Origin: Psilocybe cubensis
Taxonomy: Eukaryota
Assembly (NCBI GenBank): GCA_017499595.2
Contig: CM039001.1
Span: forward strand, 3,224,001-3,288,000
DNA: 64,000 nt
Direction: 5' to 3'
Part shown: piece by piece, positions 11,700-37,700 of the stretch
Layout of the letters: each line of letters begins with the position of its first letter
Numbering within the stretch: the first letter of the stretch is position 1
Notes under the pieces: model-generated
Database searches by the model: none
Seen by the model: the letters and a program-made list of their open reading frames with translations, nothing else
Told to the model about the DNA's origin: nothing
Translations under genes and position numbers: made by a program

Positions 11700-14344
11700 A
11701 TGCCTCTACCTCCAGGTCCGGCGTACTTGCTACAGAACCTGCCCTCGCTCTTGTTTCCCCCAGCTAGTGCAATCCTCGCAGCCAAGCTTCTTACACACCA
11801 CGGCGTTGCTGTACCCACCTGGGCGCTCCTCCTCTCATGCGTGCTTGCCTTCCCAACAGCCGTCTTCCTGCGCGTGCTGTACAGGGATGTGCGCGACCGC
11901 CGTGCTGCGGCAAGGCATGGTGCGGTATTGCCTCCCGCGGTGTATGATCGCTGGCCGGGAGGTGTGACGCTCCTGGCAAAGACACTGGACAATTTCAGGA
12001 ATGGATATCCTGGTGCGTTTGGGCTGGTTAACTAACGTTGAGGAGGGTGCTAACGGAGCGTTCCAAGGCGATATGTTTGTCGAGTGGTCGGAGAAATATG
12101 GACATACGTGGAATTTACGGGTGCTGTTCGAAAATAGGGTGAGCATGTTTTTAAATGTTATGTGGTCAATTTTGATATTTTATACGCAGTTCTTTACGAC
12201 GGAGCCAGAGTATATCAAAGCTATCCTCGCGACACAATTCGAGAACTTTGAAAAAGGTCAATATCGCGTGCTGGAATTCAGGGTTTAGATATTGACGTAC
12301 GGATAGGCCCTCTGTTTAATGACCAGATGCGGTCGGTGTTGGGAACGGGCGTGTTCAACTCTGACGGTACGCATATTTCTCTCCACTACATTCATTATAC
12401 TCATCCATGTAACTCACAGGAGAAATGTGGAAGTGAGCTCTTACCCTCTTCCCCTTCTTCACTCTTCTAACCCACTTGTAGATTCCACCGCGCAATGACC
12501 CGCCCCTTCTTCAGCAAAGACCGCATCACGCACTTTGACATCTTCGACCGGCACGCCTCGGACGCCCTCTCCCAGCTCCGCACGCGCTTGCGACAAGGTG
12601 CACCAGTCGACATCCAGGACCTTGCGTCGCGCTTCACGATGGACGCCGCGACAGAGTTTCTGTTTGGGAATGACGTGAGATCGTTGGATGCAGGGTTACC
12701 TTATCCATTTTACTGCTACGAGTCCGAGTCTGGTTCACACTCCATGGCAGACGCAAGCTTGGTATCGGCTGCCCGTGCATCCCTTCCGCACCAGCAAGCC
12801 CACCCCGCGACGCTCTTCTCCAAAGCGTTCGACGAGGCGCAGAGGCTCATCGCGCTGCGCTCGCGTCGTGGAGTCAATTGGCCGCTCGCAGAATTTTGGA
12901 GGGATGAAGTGAGCGTGCAGATGGAAGTTGTAAATGGGTTTGTGGAGCCGATTTTGAGAGCGGCAGTGGAGAGGAAGCGTGCGGCTGTTGCGGCGGGGGA
13001 TGAGAAGGGTGTAGGTGAGAACGGGGAGAAGGTTGCATTGACGGCGGATAGAGAGGTGAAGGATGGGGAAAGTTTGTTGGACCATTTGATCAATTACACC
13101 GAAGGTGAGCGTAACTTTTTTGAGCTTGGTGTGTATATTGAATGTATTTTGTGCAGATGAGACGGTCCTTCGGGATGAGATTTTGAATATTCTTTTAGCC
13201 GGGCGTGATACTGTAAGGGTGTTTTTTCCGACTGGTCCATTTCCGTCCAATATTTACAACACGCAACACAGACAACAAATAGCATCACCTACGCCGTCTA
13301 CATGCTCGCCGAGCACCCCACTGTGCTCCACCGCCTGCGCGCAGAGATCCTTGACAAAGTCGGTCCAACGCGCCGGCCAACATTCGAGCAAGTTAAAGAG
13401 ATGAGGTATCTCCGCGCGGTGATTAATGAGACCTTGAGGCTTTATCCTGCTGTGTACGTACACTGTTTTTGCTTGTGCGGGAAAAGGAAACGGTTCTGAC
13501 TTATGGGGTTATTCATCACTAATTGCGATTACGACTTTGTCCCTTTTGGCTTGTTGCTTGAACAGGCCGTTTAACATCAGGTCTACGGCGCACCCTGTCA
13601 TCTTACCGGGCAAGTATGGAAACAAACCGTTTTATCTCCCGGCAGGCAGCAAGTGCGTTTCACTCTTTCTTTTGAAATGGTATGTTGAGAATGTGAACTG
13701 ACTTGTAAATGGATGGCATGTGTAGAGTACCGTATAGCGTGTTGTTGATGCATAGGCGCAAGGATTTGTGGGGGCCCGATGGTGCGTTTTTCTTTTTCTA
13801 CGAATTTTCCTGGGTGTTATATTGTGAATTTTATTGATATGTTTTCTGTTTTGTGTGTTTGTAGCGGACGTGTTTGACCCTGATAGGTTCTTGGATGAGA
13901 GATTGAAGAAGTATGTCACGCCGAACCCGTTCATCTTTTTACCGTTCAATGCGGGGCCGAGGATATGTCTTGGGCAGCAGGTGTGTATTAATATTCTTTT
14001 CCTCTTTCCCTCCCATCCCCTTTTCTCCATCATCGATCATTTCTGACAACTACATCTTCCGCATCCCCTCGTTCCGACGAATACAGTTCGCATACCACGA
14101 GACGTCCTTCTTCCTCATCCGACTCCTCCAGCAATTTTCGAACATCACGCACGCGTACGATGCACAGCCGCCTGCATCGCGCCCACCTGCTGATTGGCTT
14201 GCGGGCAGTGAGGGTCCGAAGGGAAGGGATCGGATAAGGATGAAGAGTTACATGACGATGAGTGTGTTGGGTGGGTGTTGGGTACGTATGGAGGAGGCAA
14301 GGGGGTGGGAAGGCGGGGAAGGGGAGGGGGAGGATGTTGTTTGA
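11700..14344 (+). CDS. CYP63: Cytochrome P450 of the CYP63 family (CYP52 clan), multi-exon
   Basis: Motifs [55 protein letters not shown] and heme motif [10 protein letters not shown]. 13-nt microexon at 12420-12432. Confidence 0.93.
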
Positions 14345-14624
14345 GGGGTATAGAGTGAGGGAGGGGGAGTGTATTTTTATGTTGTATGTGATGTGTACTT
14401 TTAGTCTTCTCGTTTTTACAACGTTCTGCAAACAAGTTCGTCCTTCGCGCGGTTCGTGGTTCGGAGAACCGACATATCTGGCCGGCCGACGAGATGCCCT
14501 CTCAGAGTCTATGGGTTTTGGACTCCGCTCTAAACTAACGCCGGGGATTGCCCTTTCCCGCAGTTGTGAGAAGCAGCCGGCTTGTCTCTCTAACCGTCAT
14601 AAGCGCCGTAATGATGGACGACGA

Positions 14625-14957
14625 TATAGCTGCATCTGCAAATGCGTCGCCAGCTATGTAGGAACATCGTCCTGTGCGGTGGAATGACTCTCCTCCCGGG
14701 CTTCGCTGACCGGCTAACAAAGGAGCTCACTACAACTCCTCATTTACTGCTTCCTCACAAATTCCATGTCCGTGTTCGTCCTGAGAGAAAGGACACCGTG
14801 TGGATAGGAGGATCTATCTTGGCATCGTTGAGCACCTTTGATACGATGTGGGTTATGAAGAGGGATTATGAGGAGTTTGGATTAATTGGAGTGAGTTGGT
14901 TGCTTTGGTATTTGTGCGATCTTGACAGTACTTATGTTTTTACTAGAATGTCTTTGA
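14625..14957 (+). pseudogene. Actin relic (3' end only)
   Basis: [23 protein letters not shown]...[20 protein letters not shown]. Retains the last intron (GTGAGT...TAG) and an out-of-frame AA TGT CTT TGA remnant of the K-C-x terminal exon. No room for the 5' part after the CYP63 stop. Confidence 0.85.
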
Positions 14958-15139
14958 GCTGGTGTTAATAATTAAATAACCCGATACCTACTTTCCCTGG
15001 GGAATGGCAGCATCTTCGTCAACCATGAGTATATACGTCACTTTACTTTCTGTTTTTTACGTACTAGCTATTTGCCTCACGTGGTGGCAATTTTCACATT
15101 TCCGAGTGCTTTGTTGACTTTGGTTAATTGCAATTCACC

Positions 15140-15420
15140 ATGCCACGAAAGCGAAAAGCTACTATAGCCAGGATAAATAATCTTCGATCTGCAAGGCGCC
15201 GCTCTACTCCCACAAAGATTACAAATCCAACTGATCAAGAAGTCAAAGAACATCAGGTAAATGATTCAGAAAGAAAACAATTTTTTTACCGTAACCACGC
15301 TCTGAAAAAACTATAGCAGAAGATACATGCAGGTGACAATGAAGACGATGAAGCGGAAACAGAAGGTCCTATCACAATTGTCCCACTGGAACACCAAGAG
15401 GATATTCAAACCGGTCTTAG
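15140..15420 (+). mobile_element. Possible DNA-transposon ORF relic (basic N-terminus, then acidic tract)
   Basis: MPRKRKATIARINNLRSAR resembles N-termini of agaric transposon ORFs. The frame breaks after about 60 codons and no DDE core is visible. Confidence 0.25.
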
Positions 15421-15804
15421 AAGCCCTGCACCCAGCCTAGAGGGCGGTCAATATACCTTTCGAGCTTCTGTGGACACAGGTGCGCTACAGGGGAGACCAC
15501 ACGAGCAAGAGGGCGTCTTCCTTGAATGGTCTGCGTTTCCCAATGCGATGGGCAAAGTCGATGGCTCCAATAGCACAGCAGTACCCAACCCCTTTCACAC
15601 TTGTTCCTCCAATCCCCAAGCACAGCAATAGTTTATTATTTTCTACATCTGCTGTTTTAGCTGACAGCAATACTATCAGTATCACTGATTGATATTATAA
15701 AAGAAGGAACCAAATGTTTTATCAGCTAGTTGGTTCAAGGTCTGCCTTTGGGCTGTTTTGGCGTTTTGCGTTAATCGAATTGCCCAAGGTAAGACATTGA
15801 ACAA

Positions 15805-15884
15805 TCGGATATGGTGTAACGGCTAACATTGCCGCCTCTCATACCAGATCGCGGCAGCTCGGGGTTCGATTCCCCGTATCCGAA
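15805..15884 (+). tRNA. tRNA-Glu(CTC) with 8-nt intron
   Basis: Acceptor stem TCGGATA/TATCCGA, anticodon stem GCCGC/GCGGC with loop CT-CTC-A[TACCAGAT]C, T-arm CGGGG-TTCGATT-CCCCG. A T-run Pol III terminator follows. Confidence 0.93.
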
Positions 15885-16481
15885 ATTTTTGACTCCGCTT
15901 TAATATCTTTATACTATATCGCCATCGGCGATCGCTGGCAGGATTTACCAAGTTAAATAAAGATATAGATTGTCGGGACGTCGGCCACCTTTTTAATTTG
16001 TTTTACGACGTCTGGAAAGCCTCGAACTTCGAAGCGAGAGAATCTTGGTCACACTTTGGTCACGGTCACTGGTAATTTGTTACAGTGGGCGCCGCCGCCG
16101 ACCCCTACCTCCCTCACCACCATCATGTTAAGGACTCACATGCCAACTTGATCTCCTATATCTTGGTTGCTGCCTCTCAGTCGACCGCTTATCTATAAAA
16201 AATACCCTTGGCCCAATGGGCGAGTTCCGAATAGCAGTTTGACACAAGTTTGACGAGAATGGACAACGTCTGGCAGCTGGCATCTTCTAGACTGTGCACC
16301 TCCCACAGTCACTCGGCGACTCTTTGGGAGGAGCTGGTTTTATAGCACATAAATGCCTCGAGGCTTCAGACAATGCCGATTATTCCGTCACAAAAGATCA
16401 ATCTCTTCTTCGCCATACTACCCTTTGCATTAATTGAATAAAAACTTCCAAGGTTGGTGATAAATTGCAGAGGGCATTCAG

Positions 16482-18007
16482 ATGGACGATGGTACAGCAG
16501 CTGTGGTGAGCACGTCGATGCTCGATTGTACAAAAAATCATTTATAGACACAGGTTATGGACAATGGGACCGGTATGAGCAAAGCGGGACGTAAGTTTTT
16601 TTCATTGTTGAAAAGAGTGGTGTTTCATCGTTGACATCTATGTTCTGCGGTCGCTGGTGACGATGCACCTCGTGCTGTTTTCCCGTGTGTATACAGGGCT
16701 GACATTTAACGAGTATTTAAAAAGTTCATTCTCGTCTGTAGTTCGGTTGTTGGTCGACCACGGTTTCCAGGTGTCTTGGCTGGAATGACTATCGAGGACA
16801 CATACGTTGGGTATCAATAATTCGATGCATATAAGAAACGTCAAACTAAACTGAACCATTTCTGCTTAAAGCGAACAAGCGCAGGCGAAACGTGGTATGC
16901 TGACCTTGCAAAACCCTGTCGAATTCGGAATGGTTACCAATTGGGCCAACATGGAGAAACTCTGGCATCATGCTTTCTACAACGAACTTTGCGTGGTCCC
17001 CGAGGAGCACCCTGTGCTTCTGACAGAGGTCATCCACAATCCAAAAACCAACCGCGAGAAGATGATGCAAATAATGTTCGAGACGTTCCACGTCCCCGCG
17101 TTCAATGTGTCTGTCCAGGCCGTGTTGTCGCTTTTGGCTTCTGGTCGGAGAACAGGCATCGTTCTCGACTCTGGAGATAGTGTTTCGCATATGGTGCCTG
17201 TCTACGAATGTTTTTCTTTGCCTTATGCAAGCCGCCGTCTTGATATTGCTGGAATTGACATTACACAATATCTGGCTACGATTTTGACAGAGAGCGGGTA
17301 TGTGTTCGCGACAACTGCTGAACGGGATATTGTGCGTGACATCAAGGAGAAATTCTGCTACGTTGCCTTGGATTTTGAAAAGGAGATGCAACTTGCTAAT
17401 GAATCTTCTGGCAGTGACATACGATATGAACTTCCAGATGGGCATACTATCGATATTAACAGTCAGAGGTAATACTTTCGCATTTTTCTTTGCTTAGTTG
17501 GATAATATCAATTTGACGTCCCAGGTTTCGTGCTCCTGAAGTACTCTTTCGACCGTCTTTACTGGGCTATGAGTGGCCCGCTGTTCACAAAATGTTGTAT
17601 GTATGAGTTACAAACCATGAATTATTTCTTATGCTGTTGTCAGAGACATTTCCATATCAAAATGCGACGTCGATATGCGTTTGGACCTCTACTCGAACGT
17701 TGTTCTATCTGGTGGAACGACCCTTTTCCCGGGAATAGCTGAACGTCTCAGCAAGGAGCTGGCGGAGCTGGCCCCGAAAGGCAGCAAAGTCAATGTCATT
17801 GCTCCTCCCAAGCGAAAATATTCCGTCTGGATTGGAGGGTCGATTCTAGCGACATTGAGTACATTCAAGAGTGTATGCATTTCAAGAAGGGAGTACGACG
17901 AGCATGGCGCTAGAATCATCCATCGCAGTGAGTGTTTACATCAGCAGGTGTTGAATGATAAAGCGTCAAGTTTCCAACATCCCTGATTTCTGTTAGAATG
18001 CTTCTGA
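16482..18007 (+). CDS. Divergent actin paralogue A (7 introns; one acceptor is non-canonical)
   Basis: Spliced translation [39 protein letters not shown]...IIHRKCF with no internal stops. Intron positions match actins C and D. The intron-2 acceptor reads GG at 16649-16650. Confidence 0.85.
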
Positions 18008-18308
18008 TCAGCAGGTATTGACGTCTGAAGATGGCATGGATAGCAAAGGATTATCATCAGTCTCAAGCTGCGCTCTGGTCATTGGTCACTGCATAGCTAA
18101 TTTGGATCCCCGTGCATACCTTGGTCTGACAGATTGGCAGATTGCCGTGAAATCGATGCTCTGCACATTTGTCATTGGCATCATCATTTTCTTTAGTAGG
18201 ACATTCAAATTTTGAGGCTATGCTTGCCTCCATGCTTCATAAAGAACTTAACAACTTTGACTCGTTTATAGTTCCTCCCGAGGTCGTCTAACATTACAAC
18301 GTCTGGAG

Positions 18309-20027
18309 ATGGATTACTCTGAAGACACACCAGCCGTGGTGAGTATAATTTAACCTAAGATTATTTTATCTAGGATCCTCATATGCGCGCATTCACTGTC
18401 AGATTATTGACAACGGATCGGGTACTTGCAGGGCGGGGTGTAAGTTCCAAATAATTTAGGGCTTTTTCCAATTAATGATTTACCAGCTATATACGTTTTG
18501 TTGACAAATTGTAGTCGCCGGTATGTCTGCAGCATTATTGATAACAGTCATTACCTTGACTTGCAATCAGGAAACGATGCACCACATGCTAGCATTCCGT
18601 ACGTGTTCCCTTTTGGCACTATTATTAGTGTTAGGTTAATAAATTACTGAATTTATACATGTTATAGAAACATTATTGGGTATCCACGATACTCTCTCGC
18701 GGGCCCACCGACGCTGCTTGGTTCCGGAAGCCCCAAAGACAGATACATCGGGTATGTGGTTTCTGTCTCTCCCCATCCACCCCACGCTCGTTCCTCACTG
18801 TTGAAACCATTCACAAAAATCTATCCAAATCTTTAAGAATCGATGCCCAAACCCGACGTGGTATCCTAAACCTCAGATACCCCATCGAGCACGGGGTCGT
18901 CAAAGACTGGGAAGGGATGGAAGCGATGTGGTCGCACCTCTTCTCAGAACAGCTGCGTGTTGACATGGACGCCGACCCTCGCCCCGTCTTACTGTCTGAG
19001 CCCCCGCTTAATCCGCGCACACAGCGCGCCAGGGCAGCGGAGGTGCTTTTCGAACGCCTGCATGCGCCTGCGATGCATATGCGCTGCGCGCCGCAGCTGG
19101 CGCTGTACGCTTCCGGGCGGGCGTCGGGACTGATGCTCGATGTAGGCGATGGGGTGGCACATGCGGTGCCGATATACGAAGGTTATTCCCCCGTTGCGGT
19201 TCCGGGAGCGATGAGGAGGTGGGATTTTGGCGGGAGGGATATTACAGACTTCTTGGGTAGGTTGTTTAGGGAGAAGGGGTATGCATTGAGTGCCGGGGAA
19301 GGGGCGACAAGAGAGGTAGTAAGAGAGGTGAAGGAGTTGCGAGGATATGTTGCACTGGACTACGATAAGGAGATGACCAATCTCAGAGAGAAGGGCGAAG
19401 GTATTACTGAGAAGACGTACGAGCTTCCGGATGGGCTGTCAATCGTCCTTGGGAATGAAATGTAGGTTGACAGTGGGCTGTTGTGAGCCTGTAATGACGC
19501 CTTTCAGGTTTAGAGCGCCTGAGGCCTTGTTCCAACCGACATTGGTCGGAGAAGAGGGTCCTGGCCTCCATGAGATGGTGTAAGTTCTTTTCCCATATTT
19601 GTCCATAGCCTCGTTCAAGCAATGAAGCAATGACGCCAAATTTTGTTTTACTCAAAAAGCTGGGCGTCAATTGCCAAATGCGACATTGATCTCCGACGTG
19701 TCTTGTACCGGAACATAATACTCTCCGGAGGATCAACGAAGTTCTACGGATTTGTCCGGCGTCTACAGAAAGAGCTGGATAATCTGACGCCCGGTTCAGG
19801 AGTGGAGGTTAAAATTGTTGATATTCCAGAACGCAAATTCAACGTGTGGATTGGCGGTTCCATTCTTGCGTCTTTGAGTACGTTCAGACGGATGTGGGTC
19901 ACCAAACGGCAGTGGGAGGAATTTGGGGAAGAAATCGTGCACACAAGTGAGCGTGATTTTCACTAGCCTTTGCCGCGCGGTATGTTCATGGCTACGCTTT
20001 CTGCCATGTTTTACAGAATGCGTTTAA
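18309..20027 (+). CDS. Highly divergent actin paralogue B (8 introns)
   Basis: Spliced translation [29 protein letters not shown]...YPIEHG...DVGDGVAHAVPIYEG...[14 protein letters not shown]...IVHTKCV. All introns are GT-AG at the same positions as in C and D, including a 6-nt microexon at 18515-18520. Confidence 0.9.
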
Positions 20028-21242
20028 AATAGCACGGCATCAGATCTGAGGACTGTCAATGTGGGGAAGCAGACATATTTAGATGGCGTATGTGTGGGTT
20101 CCGAAGGCATCACACTCAGGCTCGTTTTAAAATGAAAACAGTTTACATATGGCTATCCTCCTACCTTGGGAGATGGTATTTCTCGATTCGCGAAGCCAAC
20201 AGAGAGCCATCAAGGGCACAGAGAACAATCAAACATCACTGGCTTTCAAGTTTGCATTGCAACTGTGGTGAGTTGTCAGATATTTCTGAGTTGGAATCTG
20301 CGGCGCCACCATGAGGCTGAGGACATGATTGTTGAAAACGTTGCAATTTTGAAGTACCGCTATTCGGAATCCGGAGAAGCGAGCTCGTCACCGACGCGGA
20401 TACCGAGGTGTTTATATATTATTATCGGACGCTACCTATCAGGAGTCTAAATCGACAAGTAAAAGATGCATTCATTATTGAGTCTGTGTGAGGATAGCTG
20501 ATGCATTCAGTGTTGAACTGAAGGATAAAACGCGTCGTGAGGTTCCCATAGCCGTGACAAAGCTCTTCTCATCCTCGCCATGATGCATTCAAACTTCCAT
20601 ATTCTCCTCCTTTTAATTAATACGGCTGAAGGTTTTGCACACGAAGAACGCCGCCGGACAGCTTCATTCTCCTTTTCCTTCCGTAATGAATCATGTGAGG
20701 AATTCATAGGAGCTCGACATCGATCTCAAGTACGTGAACACGCGTGTAAACCGTTAGCACAGGGCCCGCAAACGAAATTTGTCGCATATAGTGATATAAT
20801 TACTTCCTACAGATCCCAGGAAACATCTATCCTCACCAGAAACAGTCAAAAAGTGTGGCACCCTCGTTTTTACTACGAAAGAAATGAGGACTTCATAAGT
20901 TGATTCGATGGGCGTTCCTTAATAGGAGTGTGAAATGCGAGACGGAATAACGGGCGCTTATCGAAGTCACGCGTTGAGACTTGGCCTGCCTTCAGAACTG
21001 TGAGCGTGCTGCTCATATGTCGGTTTTTTATATGCTCTTCCAGAGAGCGCGGCCTCTTCAAGGCGTTTCATTTTTTTGGCCTCATGGTCGCAAGCTGATG
21101 CCATAGACCTTGGACGACTCACCTGTTAAAATTGACGTCCTTGCCAGTTTGTATATCTCGCTGCCACTTTCTGTCTTTGCCCTAATTTGCTACTTCTTGT
21201 ATCTAGGCCCCCTTCTTCGCTCCCACTTCATTTGGCTTCGTT

Positions 21243-24058: not shown

Positions 24059-25706
<1,648 letters not shown>

Positions 25707-27036
25707 GTGATTACGATGGTGATGATGATGATGATATCATGACATCTTGCAAAGATTTAATTAATGGAAACTGGGACCCGACATTGCGAAAGAAGCGTTT
25801 TGAGCGTTTTTGGACTTTTTTTTTACAATTTAGAAAGAAAAACAGAAATTTTGGCGGGTGGGCTGTCGAGCGCGTTGGTAGTTTCGGTTCCGTTCATTCA
25901 TTTCGTTCATTTCGTTTCGTTTCGTTGTTGTCGTGGGATCCCTATTTCGGCTCGAAATTATACAATTTTTTTTTGTTTCGTTTTATCCTCGGTCTCGGTC
26001 TCGCTCTTTTCTTTTCTCTTTTCTCTTTTCTCTGTTTTTTTTTTTGGAAGTTTCCGTAACCCGTTTCCGTCTCTTGAACCCTGAATGGGTAAGTACTTAA
26101 GTTGGCAAGTTGGCAAGTTGGCGGTGTGAATGGTTTGAGTGGGTTATTGCCTGAATGGTCGTCCTGGGAAGATTTTTTTTTGTCCAATGTTGTCAATGTG
26201 TCATTTTGCGAAGCGGATTCGGATGCGGGAATTTTTTTTGTTTTTTTTTTTTTTTTTGGAGTTGTGGGTCCATGTGTCTCTCCCGTGCGCTGCGCTGCAT
26301 ACATGGGTGATATAATAATATGTGAGACTTTTAAGCTTTTTAGTGAGTACGTATGAATGCTGTACATAGTTTTCTGTTGGACTCTGGAGGAAAGGGTATT
26401 AATTTATTGAAGAAGGCTCAGGAGGCCTGTGCCAGGCCCCCTGAGTCATGGTTGGACTTGGACGACTTGGATTCGGAAGTAAGCAACGGGAGCAGCCTGA
26501 GCAGCCTGAGCAGGGCAGAGGGCCGGGAAAGGAAATTATTACCTGGAAATTCGTGTCAGCGTCACGTACTTGGTTACATTGAAGTTTTGAATAACCGTTT
26601 AAGCGTTTATTAATTTTTTGTTTGTTTGTTTGTTTACACATGTTGGTCGGGTTGATGTTGTTACGCCCATTTTCTCTCTTTTTTTTCTTCTTTTTTTCAA
26701 AAAAAATATTGCAGTGGGGTGGAGTGTGGTAACACTGCAATTTGCGAGGATTAGAGCGCGTTTTTAGTGTTTGACTCCACGATTTTCTAATTTTTATTTA
26801 CTTATGTACATGTACCCAGACTTTAATTTACCCCTGTTGTGATGTGATGTGACACCGACGCTGACGGTTGACGACCCCTGTCGACGCACGCAACGCACGC
26901 AACCCCTGTGTTTTCTTTTTTTTTTTTACTCTCGAACTTTTTTTTCGGCGGGCAGGTTGTACTCTCGCTTGCGCTCTCTTACACTCGCTCTTATACTCGC
27001 ATTCTTATTAACTGAACTTACCTTGAACGCGAAGCC

Positions 27037-28856
<1,820 letters not shown>

Positions 28857-31045: not shown

Positions 31046-32094
31046 CATTGTTCCCTTTATAACATCGTAATAAAGCCTCTTCTCGATATACGAGGCTGGA
31101 TGAGGAGGGACGATCGCTTGATCTACTTGTAGAACAAAGAACAAGGAGTGTGAGAATAGTAATTTCTGGGCATATACATGGCATGCACTTGGAGTTGGAG
31201 TTGGACTTGGACTTGGTGCTGAGTAAGAGTGAGAATGTTGGCAAGTCAATTGGGGCGCCATCCAACCCTAACAAGTGTTAGAAGTTAGAAAACAACTGTG
31301 CTACAACTGTGCACACTTCACACTTGGATATCTTGAATATGCGTTGAATAATTTTATGAACGTGAAATTGATACTACTGTGTGGTCGTGAGCTAATAATA
31401 TTTAGTAGAAATGCTAGTGGACGAGTCACACAAGATTTGATCGCCACGCCGACGGCGTTTCATCCAAAAGAAAATGATTCAAACGCGGCTGGCACGGGCG
31501 CCTAATTACATCACTTCGACCTTCAATCTTTCCATACCATTCATATCTGTTATATCGGACTGAAGTTATGTTTCGCCTTCAATGAAGTAAGATTATGATG
31601 ATAATCGAATATCCCAGCATCTCCAAGATAAATTCCACTTATACGGGAATAAAGATGAGATAGGCATCCGGTTGATGTCCATGGGGTGTCTTTGGTGCTG
31701 TGTCGGAAGTGAAATAGCATTTTAAATGAGAACTGTGTGTCCATTACTTGAATTTAATCTCCGCTCAAAGCATTCTGCCGATTGATCGCCGGATGATTAG
31801 TTATCTCAAATTTTTCGGCAGAACCATTGCCATATACTTAAAACAAGTATCTCAGAGAAGTAATTTTAAACGTGATATATAAGGCATGAACAATATATAG
31901 TGTTTTTAGCTTTGCTGATTTTATATTTGAAACCATAAAAGCAGTTTTTCGGGTCGGAGTCTGCTTCGGCTATGTCCAGCGCAAGTGACGTGACCTGTGA
32001 TCAAGATCACGCTGCACGCAGTTGGTTGTCACCCTATTTATACCTTCTTGAACATTTTCATCTTGCACTTTCACTGTCTCCTCGGTCTTCCCTT

Positions 32095-33052
32095 ATGGCT
32101 ACAAAACCAGGAGATTCCAATGATTCTAAGTTGTGTGTATACTACTTACGTTCAAGAAAAACATCAATTAATAGCCTTCTCAAGAGGCTCACTCAATTTC
32201 CAGGTGCCTTGGTTCCCCGTTCGCGAGCTTACAGGTTTCAAGCTTTTCAGATTCGAGCTTGGTCAGCGCCTCAGCTGGTCTCTGCCCACCTGGCGCATTA
32301 TAAACTTTATCACCAACAAAATCAACAACAACAGCAAGAAATTCATCAAGTGCGGACCGCACGTGCGCGTGCAAGAAGCGCTCACGATGGAATTTATCGC
32401 GCGGACAACAACGATCCCCGTCCCGCGCGTCCTCGACGTGTTCAGTATCAAGGAAAACGTGTATATTGTCCAAGAGCGGATAAAAGGCCCGATTCTTGAG
32501 GATGTATGGTACCTTCTCTCACCAGATGAACAGCGGAGCTGTATGCTGCAGATCAAAGACTGCTTTGATCAACTGCGCTCGCTCACACCCGCGGCAGGCT
32601 CGGATTCAGAGCGCGTACAAGCTGTCGACGGGTCAGGTCTGATTGACTCCCGTGTTGGACAGGGTGTATGGGGGCCATTCGAAAACCACGATGAATTTCA
32701 TCGGCATCTCAACCACCCCATCCTCCGCGAGTTGCATGAGAGGTATCCCGCCCTCCAAGAGCCGCTAGCCAAAGTCGCTGGTAAGAAGTACCGGAGTGTC
32801 TTTTCGCATGGTGATTTTGGGCCGCATAATCTTATATGGGTGGACGGGAAGGGGAAGGGGAAAGGGAAAGGGAAGATTGTGGTTATCGATTGGGAGAGGG
32901 CGGGGTGGTTCCCGGAGTATTGGGATTATACGAGGGTGTATGCTGCGCGTTGGTATATGAAAGAGTGGTGTGATCTGTTTAGTGCGGTGGTGGATCGCTA
33001 CGATGACGAGTTGGAAGTCCAGGACAGAATTGATGAATACTTTGAAAGATAA
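32095..33052 (+). CDS. Aminoglycoside phosphotransferase/choline-kinase-like (APH) protein kinase-like enzyme
   Basis: EALTMEFIARTTTIPVPRV, catalytic HGDFGPHN, IDWERAGWFPEYWDY. The start is uncertain (probable short first exon at ATG 32095 and an intron ending at 32174). Confidence 0.88.
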
Positions 33053-34783: not shown

Positions 34784-37700
34784 TTAGCCTGGGTGCTGCA
34801 CCTTCCTCTCACTCTCACTCTCACACCCACACTTCCACTCCAACCCACCCCTCCCGGCCACATGCACACTAGGATGCATCGCCTTCCGCACATCCTCTCT
34901 CACCCCCACCCCGACCCTTACCTTCCCACTCCCACTCGCAACCCCGTCCACACCCCCATCATCAGGTGGAACAAGCGCCGGATGAGGCGGCCGCACAGGC
35001 GGCTGCCCATTCAAGTTACCAGCAAAGGTGCCTACGAAGCGCGAGAGCCGTTTGCTTATACCCACGCCTGTCGAAGAGGAAGAGAAAGAGGCGGATGAGG
35101 AAAAGGAGGCGAATGAAGAGAAAGAGGAAGAGGAAGAAGACCCGCAGAGCGTGTACTCGATCCTGAACCGCTCACGCCACGCTTTACACGTCTCCTCAAA
35201 CGCCAACACCATCTTTCCCCCGATTCCGTGTCCCCTTTCTATTTTATTGCCGTCGCTGCTTAACAGCGTCAGCAGTGGTTGAACTTGGAGGGAAAGGTGA
35301 GAGAACACCACTGACTGGTCATGATCAACGAACAGCTCCACCAGAGTTTTACAGTCCCCAGCATACTTCTCCGGAGTAAGCTGATGCGTATGCCACACCA
35401 AATCAATATCCAGCGTCGGAATGAACGATGATGACGACGACGATGTAGGCGACAAAGCCGTCAAATCCAAAAACCTACAGAAACAAAAACAATTGGAATG
35501 AAAACCTCAGTTACCTGCGAGTGAACTGAATGATGTGATGAAGGAAGGTACGTACGCGTGGTATCGCGCGATAGCATACCGTAACACGCGCTCGTTCCGC
35601 GGACTATCAAAGTACCCGGGCACCGTCCATCCTAGATCGTGTATCTTCTTTACAAATGCATCTTGTCGAAGAACCTTGATAGATAAATAAGTTATAAAAA
35701 AGTGAGCCTCCTAAAAATGAAGCTTTGAAGCTTTGAAGACTTGAATTTCCAAGCGACGTACCGCAGCGACAAGATCGACAGAGTAGATTTTATCATCCAC
35801 ATACGCGCTCATAATCCTGTCCACCCTATACAAAAACAACAAACAAACAAACACCACTCATCAGCACACACACACACACCCAAAATCCCAATCAAAGTTC
35901 ATCCAACAATCAACAAAAAAAAACAGAAAAAACGAAAAAAAAGAAAAAGAAAAAAAAAAAACACTCACACATCAACCTCCCCACACTCCCCAACCATCAT
36001 CTCCCTCAACCGCCCCATCGAATATGAACAATAGCGCATCACAGCGCTCGACATTTCGCGTTCGTACTCTGGGGTGCCGTACGTGTACGTGGGGGCGGGC
36101 GTCGCTTGCTTTGCACTGCTCGAGAAAGAACTTGAGGAGAAGAACACCTTGGACTTGGCTTTATCGCATAGCAGCCGTTTAATCTTGTTCCCCGCCTCCG
36201 TGTCGGATGTGGATTGTGTGAGGAGTGTCCCTCTATGCACGAAAAATAAAGGTTGTAATTAGTGTTTTTTCTTTGCTTTTTCCAATAAAATAAAACGGAA
36301 AAAAGGAAGGAAGGAAGGAAGACAAGGAAGACGAGAAAAAAAAGGAAGACAAGGAAGACAAGGAAGACAAGGAAGACAAGGAAAAAGGGAAAAGGGAAAA
36401 GGGAAAAAAGAGATCCCAAACACGCACGCTAAATGCGAGCTCCGCTCGACATACGTCGGATACGCGCGCGCTGCGATATCATTTGCGAGCTTGCGGAGTG
36501 CGAGCTGTTCTTTGTTGATTGTTACACCCGTAGCCACTTCCTTCCCCTTACCTACACACACTTCCTTACCCACCGCCGTACCCGCGTTGACACCCACACC
36601 CGCGTCTGTCTTTGCGCTGGCGTTTGTGCTGGTGTTTGTGCTGGTGCTGGTGCTGGTGTTCGCGCTGGTGTTGGTGTTGGTGTTGGTGCCGGTGACCGCG
36701 ATCGAATCGCACCCATCAGGCGCACGCGGACACGTAGTGAAAAAGTTGGACTGGAAGTATCCCGTCCCTTTATCATTCACGAATTCTGGGATAATCACAA
36801 GTATAAGCATAAGCATAATCATAATCAGCATAATCGTAGATATAACGATAATCAAGCAGAAATAACTTGAAGAAAAGAAAAAAAAAAGAGAAGACGCACC
36901 GACCCAGATATCGCATCCGCACCGCGGACACGGGACGTTCTTGCCTTTCCCATTCATCCCATTCCTCTTTCCCTTTTCCTCCTTCTTCTTCTCCTTCTCC
37001 TTCTCCACCCCCTTCTCTATCGCTTCCTTCTCACCTACCTCCTTACCAAACTCCATCCCCATTCCCTCCTTCACCTCCTTCATCTTCTCCCCTTTACCAA
37101 ACTCCTTCCCCTCCTTCACCCCAACCCCCAACTCTGATCCCGACCCCACTCCCACCCCAACCCCCAATTCTGATCCCACACACATCCCCCCACATTCGAA
37201 AAACACAAACGGATCAAACTCCACACCCGTACGTGCGCACCATCGTTCTTCGCGGAGCTTTGACTGTCGGGGCCGGGCTCGTGTTCGTGTTCGGGGTCGC
37301 GGTCGGGGTCGTGGGGGAGGTTGCTTATCGTATCGCTTCTCCCCAGCTTCCTCTTCCTCTTCCTCGTCCTTGTAGTTGTAGTTGTAGTTGGACTTGGAGT
37401 CGGGATTGAACTTGGCGTCGGAGTCGTCCTTGTAGTTCCAGTCGTCCTTGTTCCCATGATCGTCCTCGTCCTCGCTGTTGTAATCGTGGTTGTAGTTGTA
37501 TTTGTCATTAGAGTGAATCTCAAACTCATAATCGTACTCCAAATCAGACCGAACAAGATCCACCACCCCAGTATCACACAGCATCTCAGCAAACTTTGAC
37601 TCGCAAAGTTTGAGAATTTGACAGGTGCGGATGCGTGTGGTGTCTTCTGCGTACCATCTGCGGAAAGAGGGGAGTGAGAAGAGAAGGGGGTAAAGGCAAG

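What the first reader, a model, noticed from the sequence alone, without database searches (positions are those of the whole stretch)
18309..20027. Intact actin paralogue B lacks catalytic Q137 and has remodelled filament-contact loops
Seen by manual alignment: [12 protein letters not shown] becomes MHMRCAPQLALY, i.e. Q137A, A138P, V139Q. The D-loop is replaced and 5 aa longer (YPRYSLAGPPTLLGSGSPKD). There are in-frame insertions near residues 97, 169, 201, 232 and 323, and residue 295 is R. Phosphate loops (DNGSG, DVGDG), H73 and H161 are kept. All indels preserve frame and all 8 introns are canonical, which suggests selection. Known: Q137 positions the hydrolytic water, and V139M plus A295D confer cytochalasin B resistance in human beta-actin. 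Inference: an ATP-binding but hydrolysis-impaired actin, possibly cytochalasan-insensitive or non-polymerising/capping.
Basis: partly seen in the sequence, partly recalled or inferred. Interest (0 to 1): 0.75.

Follow-up and report, generated by a model that had tools for sequence, protein, structure and literature searches.

The report
Divergent actin paralogue lacking Gln137
A magic-mushroom genome carries, beside its two normal actin genes, an expressed and apparently selected actin copy that has lost a key ATP-splitting residue and changed its filament contacts; it is one more lineage-specific actin offshoot, and its function is untested.

Summary
Window 18309-20027 (+) is an intact 9-exon, 392-aa actin gene of Psilocybe cubensis. 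All 8 introns are GT..AG, and it carries Q137A/A138P/V139Q, a D-loop 5 aa longer, five further in-frame indels and R295. DNGSG, DVGDG, H73 and H161 are kept.

It lies in a tandem actin array: a relic exon, divergent A, B, then canonical C and D. B shares all 8 intron positions with C and D, including a 6-nt microexon.

Spliced contigs of two runs show transcription. Six introns are confirmed exactly and the microexon form is seen in one contig. A frameshifting alternative acceptor and retention of intron 5 also occur.

Only one relative exists in the protein libraries (64% and 74% identity over two exons). It keeps A137-P138 but has L139, and K at 295. There are 46 shared derived residues, and open frames in both relatives are unlikely under neutrality (8 of 2000 simulations).

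Best reading: a selected, actin-derived "orphan Arp-like" protein that binds ATP, hydrolyses it poorly and does not polymerise canonically. The biochemistry and the cytochalasin link are untested. This is a new member of a known kind, of moderate interest.

The parts
18309..20027 (+). Actin paralogue B, CDS span (9 exons, 392 aa plus stop)
   Evidence: Built by coordinates. Pfam Actin PF00022 scores 145 bits on exon 6 and 113 bits on exon 8.
18309..18338 (+). Exon 1 (start codon; N-terminus 2 aa longer than canonical)
   Evidence: The intron 1 joint 18338/18403 is seen in spliced contigs of X1 and X2.
18403..18439 (+). Exon 2 (phosphate loop 1, DNGSG; K18->R)
18515..18520 (+). 6-nt microexon (exon 3)
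   Evidence: An X1 contig joins 18439 to 18570 with the microexon letters in between (tables 5 and 5c). The same 6-nt microexon is present in canonical C (24246-24251) and D (27293-27298).
18487..18514 (+). Extension of exon 3 when the alternative acceptor at 18486 is used; shifts the frame and gives a stop at codon 41
   Evidence: Joint 18439->18487 in X1 and X2; translated.
18571..18598 (+). Exon 4
   Evidence: Joints 18520/18571 and 18598/18668 in X1 and X2.
18668..18751 (+). Exon 5, encoding the replaced D-loop (84 nt against 69 nt in C and D, +5 aa)
   Evidence: The D-loop keeps 4 of 15 positions. The spliced 18751/18838 joint is not among the listed joints. Intron 5 is retained in X2 record 9. 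An X1 contig starts at 18837, as expected if both forms exist.
18838..19461 (+). Exon 6 (actin residues about 56-254; H73; insertions near 97, 169, 201 and 232; DVGDG; H161; R177)
19088..19096 (+). Codons GCG CCG CAG = A137 P138 Q139 (canonical Q-A-V)
   Evidence: The relative P0121 has A-P-L.
19508..19579 (+). Exon 7 (hydrophobic-plug region, 6 of 13 positions kept)
   Evidence: Joints 19461/19508 (X1) and 19579/19660 (X1, X2).
19660..19946 (+). Exon 8 (R295; +1 aa near 323; groove residues 341-355 kept)
   Evidence: The relative P0387 is 74% identical with K295.
20017..20027 (+). Exon 9 plus stop codon
   Evidence: Joint 19946/20017 in X1 and X2.
18196..18271 (+). GT..AG intron in the leader between A's stop and B's start codon
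   Evidence: Joint in X1 and X2 contigs that also carry A's last exons.
16482..18007 (+). Neighbour: divergent actin paralogue A (8 exons, 375 aa, 65.6% identical to D; keeps Q137, lacks H73)
   Evidence: Introns 1-4 and its last intron are seen in RNA contigs.
24059..25706 (+). Neighbour: canonical actin C (9 exons, 375 aa)
27037..28856 (+). Neighbour: canonical actin D (9 exons, 375 aa, 94.4% identical to C)
14636..14881 (+). Relic of one actin exon (equivalent of exon 8; R at 295, B-like tail)
   Evidence: Pfam Actin 89 bits. No other actin-like piece is found upstream of it.

Best explanation
B is a real, transcribed, selectively maintained offshoot of the conventional actin gene. It arose by tandem duplication inside the Psilocybe cubensis actin array and has since evolved fast.

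Shown:
- The exon-intron structure is intact and identical to that of the neighbouring canonical actins.
- Spliced RNA exists.
- One sister sequence in another record shares 46 derived residues, including A137-P138.

Inferred:
- The protein still folds as actin and binds ATP-Mg. Both phosphate loops, D154, H161, K213, E214, G301-G302 and K336 are kept.
- It splits ATP slowly or not at all, because the Gln that holds the attacking water is replaced by Ala-Pro.
- It cannot make the normal pointed-end and lateral filament contacts. The D-loop is replaced and 5 aa longer, the plug is partly de-hydrophobised, and insertions lie in the W-loop and subdomain 4.
- The core of its barbed-end groove (I341, I345, L346, L349, T351, F352) is intact.

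It therefore most likely acts as an actin-derived, Arp-like accessory protein. It would be either a poor self-polymeriser that binds groove ligands or conventional actin, or a minor copolymer subunit with a long-lived ATP state. It is unlikely to be a bulk filament former.
For: Gene model and shared intron positions, including the 6-nt microexon.

Tandem array of five actin-derived units at 14.6-28.9 kb.

Transcription. RNA-type contigs of X1 and X2 skip introns 1, 3, 4, 7 and 8. X1 also skips intron 6 and carries the intron 2/microexon form. DNA contigs of X3 and X4 are collinear and show no indel in B.

Key residues. The alignment around 137 is ungapped. Q is present in at least 90% of a 48-row alignment, with D154, G156, D157, H161, R177, R183, K213 and E214 invariant, B included.

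Sole specific relatives. Only P0121 and P0387 appear among 5.8 billion and 1.84 billion library proteins. They have A137-P138 and K295. B and P0121 form a clade with 100/100 support.

Constraint:
- Of 235 canonical-invariant sites covered by the relative, 124 are unchanged in both, 46 are shared derived, 23 are changed in B only, 19 in the relative only, and 23 are changed differently in each.
- pN is 0.299 against pS 0.749 versus D.
- A neutral simulation to the observed identity gives a mean of 4.8 stops, with none in 8 of 2000 runs.

Literature. Q137A actin has low ATPase yet still adopts the F-form (PMC10062479).
Against: No protein-level evidence exists, and there is no assay.

Non-productive transcripts:
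- Both RNA runs hold a contig that uses an upstream acceptor (18486). This shifts the frame and gives a stop at codon 41.
- X2 retains intron 5, giving a stop at codon 90.
- The spliced form of intron 5 is not in the listed joints (3 joints were not shown).

Contigs bridge from A's last coding exons into B. B may therefore sit on a read-through transcript with three upstream ATGs.

The listed strain polymorphisms in B are 4 non-synonymous, 3 synonymous and 1 intronic (25 more differences in the laid stretch were not shown). This gives no clear signal of constraint within the species.

Q137A alone does not stop polymerisation. The Q137A crystal structure keeps the attacking water in place (PMC10062479).

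Only one relative was found, from an unnamed record, so I cannot exclude that it is a second paralogue rather than an orthologue.

The functional residue lists used are recalled, not taken from a tool.
Confidence: 0.55

Rival explanations
1. B is still a true filament-forming actin isoform, for example stage- or tissue-specific in the mushroom. It would polymerise or copolymerise essentially normally, and Q137A would only slow hydrolysis.
For: Engineered Q137A cardiac actin polymerises and adopts the F-form (PMC10062479). Groove core residues, H73, H161, R177 and the C-terminal Cys are kept. Divergent actins such as Chlamydomonas NAP1 do form filaments (PMC12444908).
Against: Only 54-55% identity to the canonical copies. 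The D-loop keeps 4 of 15 positions and is 5 aa longer, the plug keeps 6 of 13, there is a 3-aa insertion inside the W-loop, and the lateral-contact set keeps 6 of 15.
Confidence: 0.22
2. B is a decaying or neutrally drifting duplicate that happens to be transcribed, partly by read-through from A, and makes no useful protein.
For: A frameshifting alternative acceptor is seen in both RNA runs, intron 5 is retained in X2, and contigs bridge A and B. Upstream ATGs lie in the leader. The listed SNPs are 4 non-synonymous to 3 synonymous. A relic actin exon lies nearby at 14636-14881. GC3 is lower than in C and D (0.59 against 0.70-0.72).
Against: 392 codons over 9 exons remain open with all splice sites canonical. 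There is no indel or stop in B in two DNA runs. There are 46 shared derived residues with the relative. The frames of both relatives stay open in only 8 of 2000 neutral simulations. pN is far below pS. The productive microexon form is present in RNA.
Confidence: 0.13
3. B is a toxin-insensitive back-up actin. It would be either self-resistance to a cytochalasan-like product or protection against competitors' actin toxins, in the manner of NAP1.
For: Positions 139 and 295, whose joint mutation gives cytochalasin B resistance in human beta-actin, are both changed (PMC2289332 abstract). A basic residue at 295 is shared by B, the relative and the relic exon. The W-loop at the rim of the cytochalasin site carries a 3-aa insertion in B. 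Divergent toxin-resistant actins are documented (PMC12444908).
Against: Residue 139 is not conserved (Q in B, L in the relative) and the W-loop insertion is absent from the relative. The substitutions differ from the published ones. Y69, the residue changed in latrunculin-resistant actins, is kept. No PKS/NRPS-type gene was found among the 10 largest of 34 long ORFs; only a P450, an APH-type kinase and a GRDP-like domain were seen. A back-up actin would be expected to keep its filament contacts.
Confidence: 0.07

Closest known systems
Conventional actin (Pfam PF00022), here the window's own genes C and D
   Same: Same fold family. Same 8 intron positions and 6-nt microexon. Same phosphate loops, H73, D154, H161, R177 and groove core.
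   Different: 54-55% identity and 392 instead of 375 aa. Q137A/A138P/V139Q. The D-loop is replaced, there are five further indels, and the plug and lateral contacts are changed.
Engineered Q137A human cardiac alpha-actin (PDB 8GT4/8GT5)
   Same: Ala at position 137. That mutant has low ATPase (PMC10062479, passages read).
   Different: The mutant is otherwise wild type and polymerises. B carries about 175 further differences and a Pro at 138.
Chlamydomonas NAP1 and other lineage-specific divergent actins (sponges, nudibranchs)
   Same: A divergent actin coexists with a conventional one in the same genome (PMC12444908, passages read).
   Different: NAP1 forms filaments, is induced by latrunculin and is changed at the Tyr that contacts latrunculin. 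B keeps that Tyr, and nothing is known about its induction.
Non-canonical 'orphan' Arps (for example Drosophila Arp53D; mammalian testis Arps are named from recall)
   Same: Young, fast-evolving actin-family duplicates restricted to one lineage, with unknown or specialised roles (PMC8291977; only the start of the abstract was seen, in the listing).
   Different: A different kingdom. B is demonstrably derived from the adjacent conventional actin genes. No localisation or phenotype data exist.
Cytochalasin-B-resistant beta'-actin of KB Cyt 1 cells (V139M + A295D)
   Same: The same two positions are altered (PMC2289332 abstract).
   Different: Different residues (Q and R). Residue 139 is not conserved in the relative. 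No drug data exist.

Membership tests
Actin family (Pfam PF00022) | Score above the Pfam gathering cut-off (27 bits) | tested here: met
   Exon 6 scores 145.2 bits and exon 8 scores 113.1 bits. The public fused models P0001 and P0002 carry PF00022.
Conventional actin | Very high identity to other conventional actins and a length of about 375 aa | tested here: not met
   54.4% and 55.0% identity to D and C; 392 aa. About 50% identity to solved actins over exon 6.
Conventional actin | Catalytic Gln137 | tested here: not met
   Ala at 137 in an ungapped alignment. Q is present in at least 90% of the 48 aligned rows.
Conventional actin | Phosphate loops, D154, H161, K213/E214 and G301/G302 | tested here: met
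   There are changes at K18R, S155V, T303S and M305K.
Conventional actin | Polymerisation and polymerisation-stimulated ATPase | not testable with these tools
   This needs purified protein. The fragment model was too poor to use.
Ancient conserved Arp families (Arp1-Arp10) | Orthology to one of the conserved Arp clades | tested here: inconclusive
   All 60 best solved-structure hits shown are named actin. B shares all 8 intron positions with the adjacent actin genes, which argues for a recent actin origin. No verified Arp sequences were placed in the tree.
Toxin-resistant divergent actins (NAP1 type) | Substitution of the latrunculin-contacting Tyr (Y69; Tyr71 in precursor numbering) | tested here: not met
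   Y69 is kept in B and in the relative. The residue's role is taken from PMC12444908.
Toxin-resistant divergent actins (NAP1 type) | Resistance phenotype or induction by the toxin | not testable with these tools
   No data.
Self-resistance copy inside a biosynthetic gene cluster | A core biosynthetic gene (PKS, NRPS or hybrid) next to it | tested here: inconclusive
   10 of the 34 ORFs of at least 170 aa were scanned. A P450 (below cut-off), an APH and a GRDP-like domain were found, and 6 ORFs had no family. Small-exon genes were not scanned.

The most novel reading that the evidence does not exclude
B-type actin founds a new, fungus-specific Arp-like family. It would be a naturally ATPase-impaired actin whose intact barbed-end groove and rebuilt pointed face let it seed, cap or stabilise conventional actin filaments in Psilocybe and its near relatives.
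Probability: 0.12. Interest if true: 0.6.

Novelty: new member of a known kind. Interest (0 to 1): 0.4.

Why it matters
Conventional actin is among the most constrained proteins known, and in the 48-row alignment here Gln137 is replaced only in B and its relative. A natural, selected actin derivative with Ala-Pro at 137-138 would be a ready-made experiment on two questions: what ATP hydrolysis is for, and how new actin-related proteins arise from actin by tandem duplication.

The locus shows several stages side by side: two canonical copies, a moderately divergent copy, a strongly divergent copy and a dead exon. Practically, the two public protein models fuse A with B and misread B's N-terminus, so B is invisible as a gene in current annotation.

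Tried and rejected
- Whole-genome search: no genome is held for this window.
- Earlier findings: three look-ups returned nothing.
- RNA runs: no RNA holder is listed as such. X1 and X2 are labelled only as guessed RNA. I treat them as RNA-derived because their contigs skip GT..AG introns that the DNA runs carry.
- Structure: an AlphaFold2 model of the exon 6 fragment with a 48-row alignment was poor (mean pLDDT 54.5; residues 85-135, which include 137-139, below 50). It was not used and no fold search was made. On sequence the flanks are ungapped, and i+2 in a helix faces the other side (inference).
- Metagenome scans: the first found 0 relatives among 213 pattern matches. The second found 22 loci, the best full-length match at 49% identity and one 23-residue match at 70%. 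None was B-type and they were not used further.
- Self-resistance context: no supporting gene was found.
- Literature: 'cytochalasin + V139M + actin' gave 0 papers. For 'Psilocybe cubensis + actin', 85 papers hold both terms. Of the 10 listed, none deals with actin genes by title or abstract start, and the rest were not opened. A search on basidiomycete actin paralogues listed nothing relevant to fungi. The Agaricomycete fruiting-body review has one occurrence of 'actin', on arp9, in the 300,000 characters held. Supplementary expression tables of Psilocybe transcriptome papers were closed and might show when B is expressed.
- Complex prediction was not used, because filament-type pairs pass by likeness and full-length B cannot be supplied.
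- Depths of contigs were not used to rank genes or isoforms.

Full report
WHAT IS THERE

The window is from Psilocybe cubensis. The large exon at 18839-19459 is 100% identical to two public proteins named 'Actin [Psilocybe cubensis]' (P0001, 574 aa; P0002, 797 aa).

Reading the three frames and joining exons by coordinates gives a 9-exon gene at 18309-20027 on the + strand. The CDS is 1179 nt, giving 392 aa. The 8 introns are 46-86 nt long and all are GT..AG.

Both public models fuse this gene with the upstream actin gene. P0002 also reads B's first exons in wrong frames. No correct model of B was among the library hits.

HMMER against solved actins aligns the region around 137 without a gap. 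MAFFT against the window's own canonical actins does the same. Both give Q137A, A138P and V139Q (codons 19088-19096).

In a 48-row alignment of diverse actins that column is Q in at least 90% of rows. D154, G156, D157, H161, R177, R183, K213 and E214 are invariant, B included.

Compared with canonical C, exon sizes differ by +6, 0, 0, 0, +15, +27, 0, +3, 0 nt. This corresponds to:
- a 2-aa longer N-terminus;
- a D-loop longer by 5 aa and kept at only 4 of 15 positions;
- indels near residues 97, 169, 201, 232 and 323.

Residue 295 is R. DNGSG, DVGDG, H73 and H161 are present.

CONTEXT

B is one unit of a tandem actin array, all on the + strand:
- A lone relic of the exon 8 equivalent at 14636-14881, just after a P450 gene.
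- Paralogue A at 16482-18007 (375 aa, 65.6% identical to D). It keeps Q137 but has F at 73 and N at 69.
- B itself.
- Two canonical 375-aa actins, C (24059-25706) and D (27037-28856), which are 94.4% identical to each other.

B is 54.4% and 55.0% identical to D and C, and 46.9% identical to A. B shares all 8 intron positions with C and D, including a 6-nt microexon. A has lost the intron behind the microexon. B is therefore an actin duplicate born in this array, not an ancient Arp.

Synonymous sites are saturated between all pairs, even C against D (dS 1.5), so the duplications are old.

Of the 34 ORFs of at least 170 aa, the 10 largest were scanned. They showed a P450 (below cut-off), an APH-type kinase and a GRDP-like domain. 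No polyketide or peptide synthase was seen.

EXPRESSION

Four runs were laid on 14300-20300. X3 and X4 are genomic: their contigs are collinear and show no indel in B.

X1 and X2 carry contigs that skip GT..AG introns, so they derive from RNA:
- The joints match my introns 1, 3, 4, 7 and 8 in both runs, and intron 6 in X1.
- One X1 contig joins 18439 to 18570 with the microexon letters in between. This is the productive form of introns 2 and 3.
- Both runs also hold a contig using an acceptor at 18486. This lengthens exon 3 by 28 nt and gives a stop at codon 41.
- X2 record 9 runs collinear over 18668-19060. Intron 5 is therefore retained there, giving a stop at codon 90.
- The spliced intron 5 joint is not in the listed table (3 joints were not shown).
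- An X1 contig begins at 18837. That is where a graph would break if spliced and unspliced forms both exist (my inference). The intron's position is the same as in C and D.
- Contigs also run from A's last coding exons, through A's terminal intron and a further intron (18196-18271), into B's first exons. This means either read-through or overlapping transcripts. Contigs cannot tell which.

SELECTION

Only one specific relative exists in the libraries. It consists of P0121 (exon 6 equivalent, 64% identity over 207 aa) and P0387 (exon 8 equivalent, 74% over 89 aa). Each comes from a Logan contig whose longest length is 3339 bases.

The exhaustive search of 1.84 billion representatives shows no other cluster above the general actin background. 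B and P0121 form a clade with 100/100 support on a long stem. The position of that clade among actins is unresolved.

The relative has A137-P138, L139 and K295. It shares the insertions near 97 and 232, but not those at 169 and 201.

Of 235 sites that are invariant in three canonical basidiomycete actins and covered by the relative:
- 124 are unchanged in both;
- 46 carry the same derived residue in both, including Q137A and A138P;
- 23 differ only in B;
- 19 differ only in the relative;
- 23 differ in both, but differently.

Against D, pN is 0.299 and pS is 0.749.

I mutated B's 296 covered codons neutrally down to the observed 67.6% identity. This produced a mean of 4.8 stops, and none in 8 of 2000 runs. 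Indels were ignored, so this is conservative.

Within the species the listed differences in B are 4 non-synonymous (all conservative), 3 synonymous and 1 intronic. A further 25 differences in the laid stretch were not shown, so this says little.

Caveat: the relative comes from an unnamed record. I cannot prove that it is an orthologue rather than a second paralogue. Either way, two independently evolving copies keep the derived state.

LIKELY FUNCTION

The residue lists used below are recalled from the actin literature, not taken from a tool.
- Nucleotide-site set: B keeps 19 of 25. The changes are M16T, K18R, Q137A, S155V, T303S and M305K.
- Catalysis and phosphate-release set: 9 of 11.
- Barbed-end groove set: 12 of 17, with I341, I345, L346, L349, T351 and F352 intact.
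- D-loop: 4 of 15.
- Plug: 6 of 13.
- Lateral-contact set: 6 of 15.

Engineered Q137A actin has low ATPase although the attacking water stays in place, and it still takes the F-form (PMC10062479; abstract and passages). That paper cites the biochemistry to Iwasa et al. 2008, which I did not see.

I therefore read B as an ATP-binding, slowly hydrolysing actin derivative. Its pointed and lateral faces no longer fit a canonical filament, while its groove can still take ligands or a conventional D-loop. That makes it an orphan, Arp-like accessory protein or a minor copolymer subunit. Everything from 'binds ATP' onwards is inference.

THE CYTOCHALASIN IDEA

The published resistant beta-actin needs both V139M and A295D (PMC2289332, abstract). 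B has Q and R at those positions, and its relative has L and K. Canonical fungal actin has G at 295. The link is weak, and there is no cluster context. Natural toxin-resistant divergent actins such as NAP1 are changed at the latrunculin Tyr (PMC12444908), which B keeps.

NOVELTY

Lineage-specific divergent actins and orphan Arps are known in algae, animals and protists. I found nothing on such a gene in Psilocybe or other mushrooms in the searches, which are limited as stated under Tried and rejected. B is a new member of a known kind. It is noteworthy for the conserved natural loss of Gln137 and for the stepwise series of actin copies preserved at one locus.

Noticed in passing
window 16649 (intron 2 acceptor of paralogue A, 16591-16650): In the window the acceptor dinucleotide of A's intron 2 reads GG, whereas the DNA contigs of X3 and X4 have A at 16649 (AG). 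The RNA contigs of X1 and X2 splice exactly there. The window strain may carry a splice-site variant in A, or a base error.
   Followed up: partly
window 16482-18007: Paralogue A is itself an unusual actin: 65.6% identical to canonical, with H73F, Y69N and changes in the Pro-rich loop. It keeps Q137 and the canonical length and is transcribed.
   Followed up: partly
window 18515-18520, 24246-24251, 27293-27298: A 6-nt microexon lies at the same position of actin genes B, C and D. It is fused to the next exon in A.
   Followed up: yes
window 17751-18439: RNA contigs link A's last coding exons to B's first exons through an extra intron at 18196-18271. This indicates either read-through or overlapping transcripts. 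The spliced leader holds three upstream ATGs.
   Followed up: partly
window 14636-14881: An isolated, open, actin exon 8-like relic lies just after a P450 gene. It has R at 295 and a B-like tail. A low-depth X2 contig covers part of it with 10 differences.
   Followed up: partly
window 16482-20027 versus P0001/P0002: Both public protein models fuse paralogues A and B. P0002 also reads B's exons 1-5 in wrong frames.
   Followed up: yes
window 24059-28856: There are two canonical actin genes 1.3 kb apart, 94.4% identical in protein but with dS about 1.5. This is an old duplicate pair held nearly identical at the protein level.
   Followed up: partly
window 14880, 15785, 16089, 16121: Strain-specific insertions of 10, 36, 12 and 4 nt relative to the window are seen in the contigs of other runs, all outside B.
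   Followed up: no
window 12471-14250; 31994-33052; 34784-35506: Other genes seen: a cytochrome P450 (+ strand, heme-motif region near 13940), an APH-type phosphotransferase domain and a GRDP-like domain.
   Followed up: no
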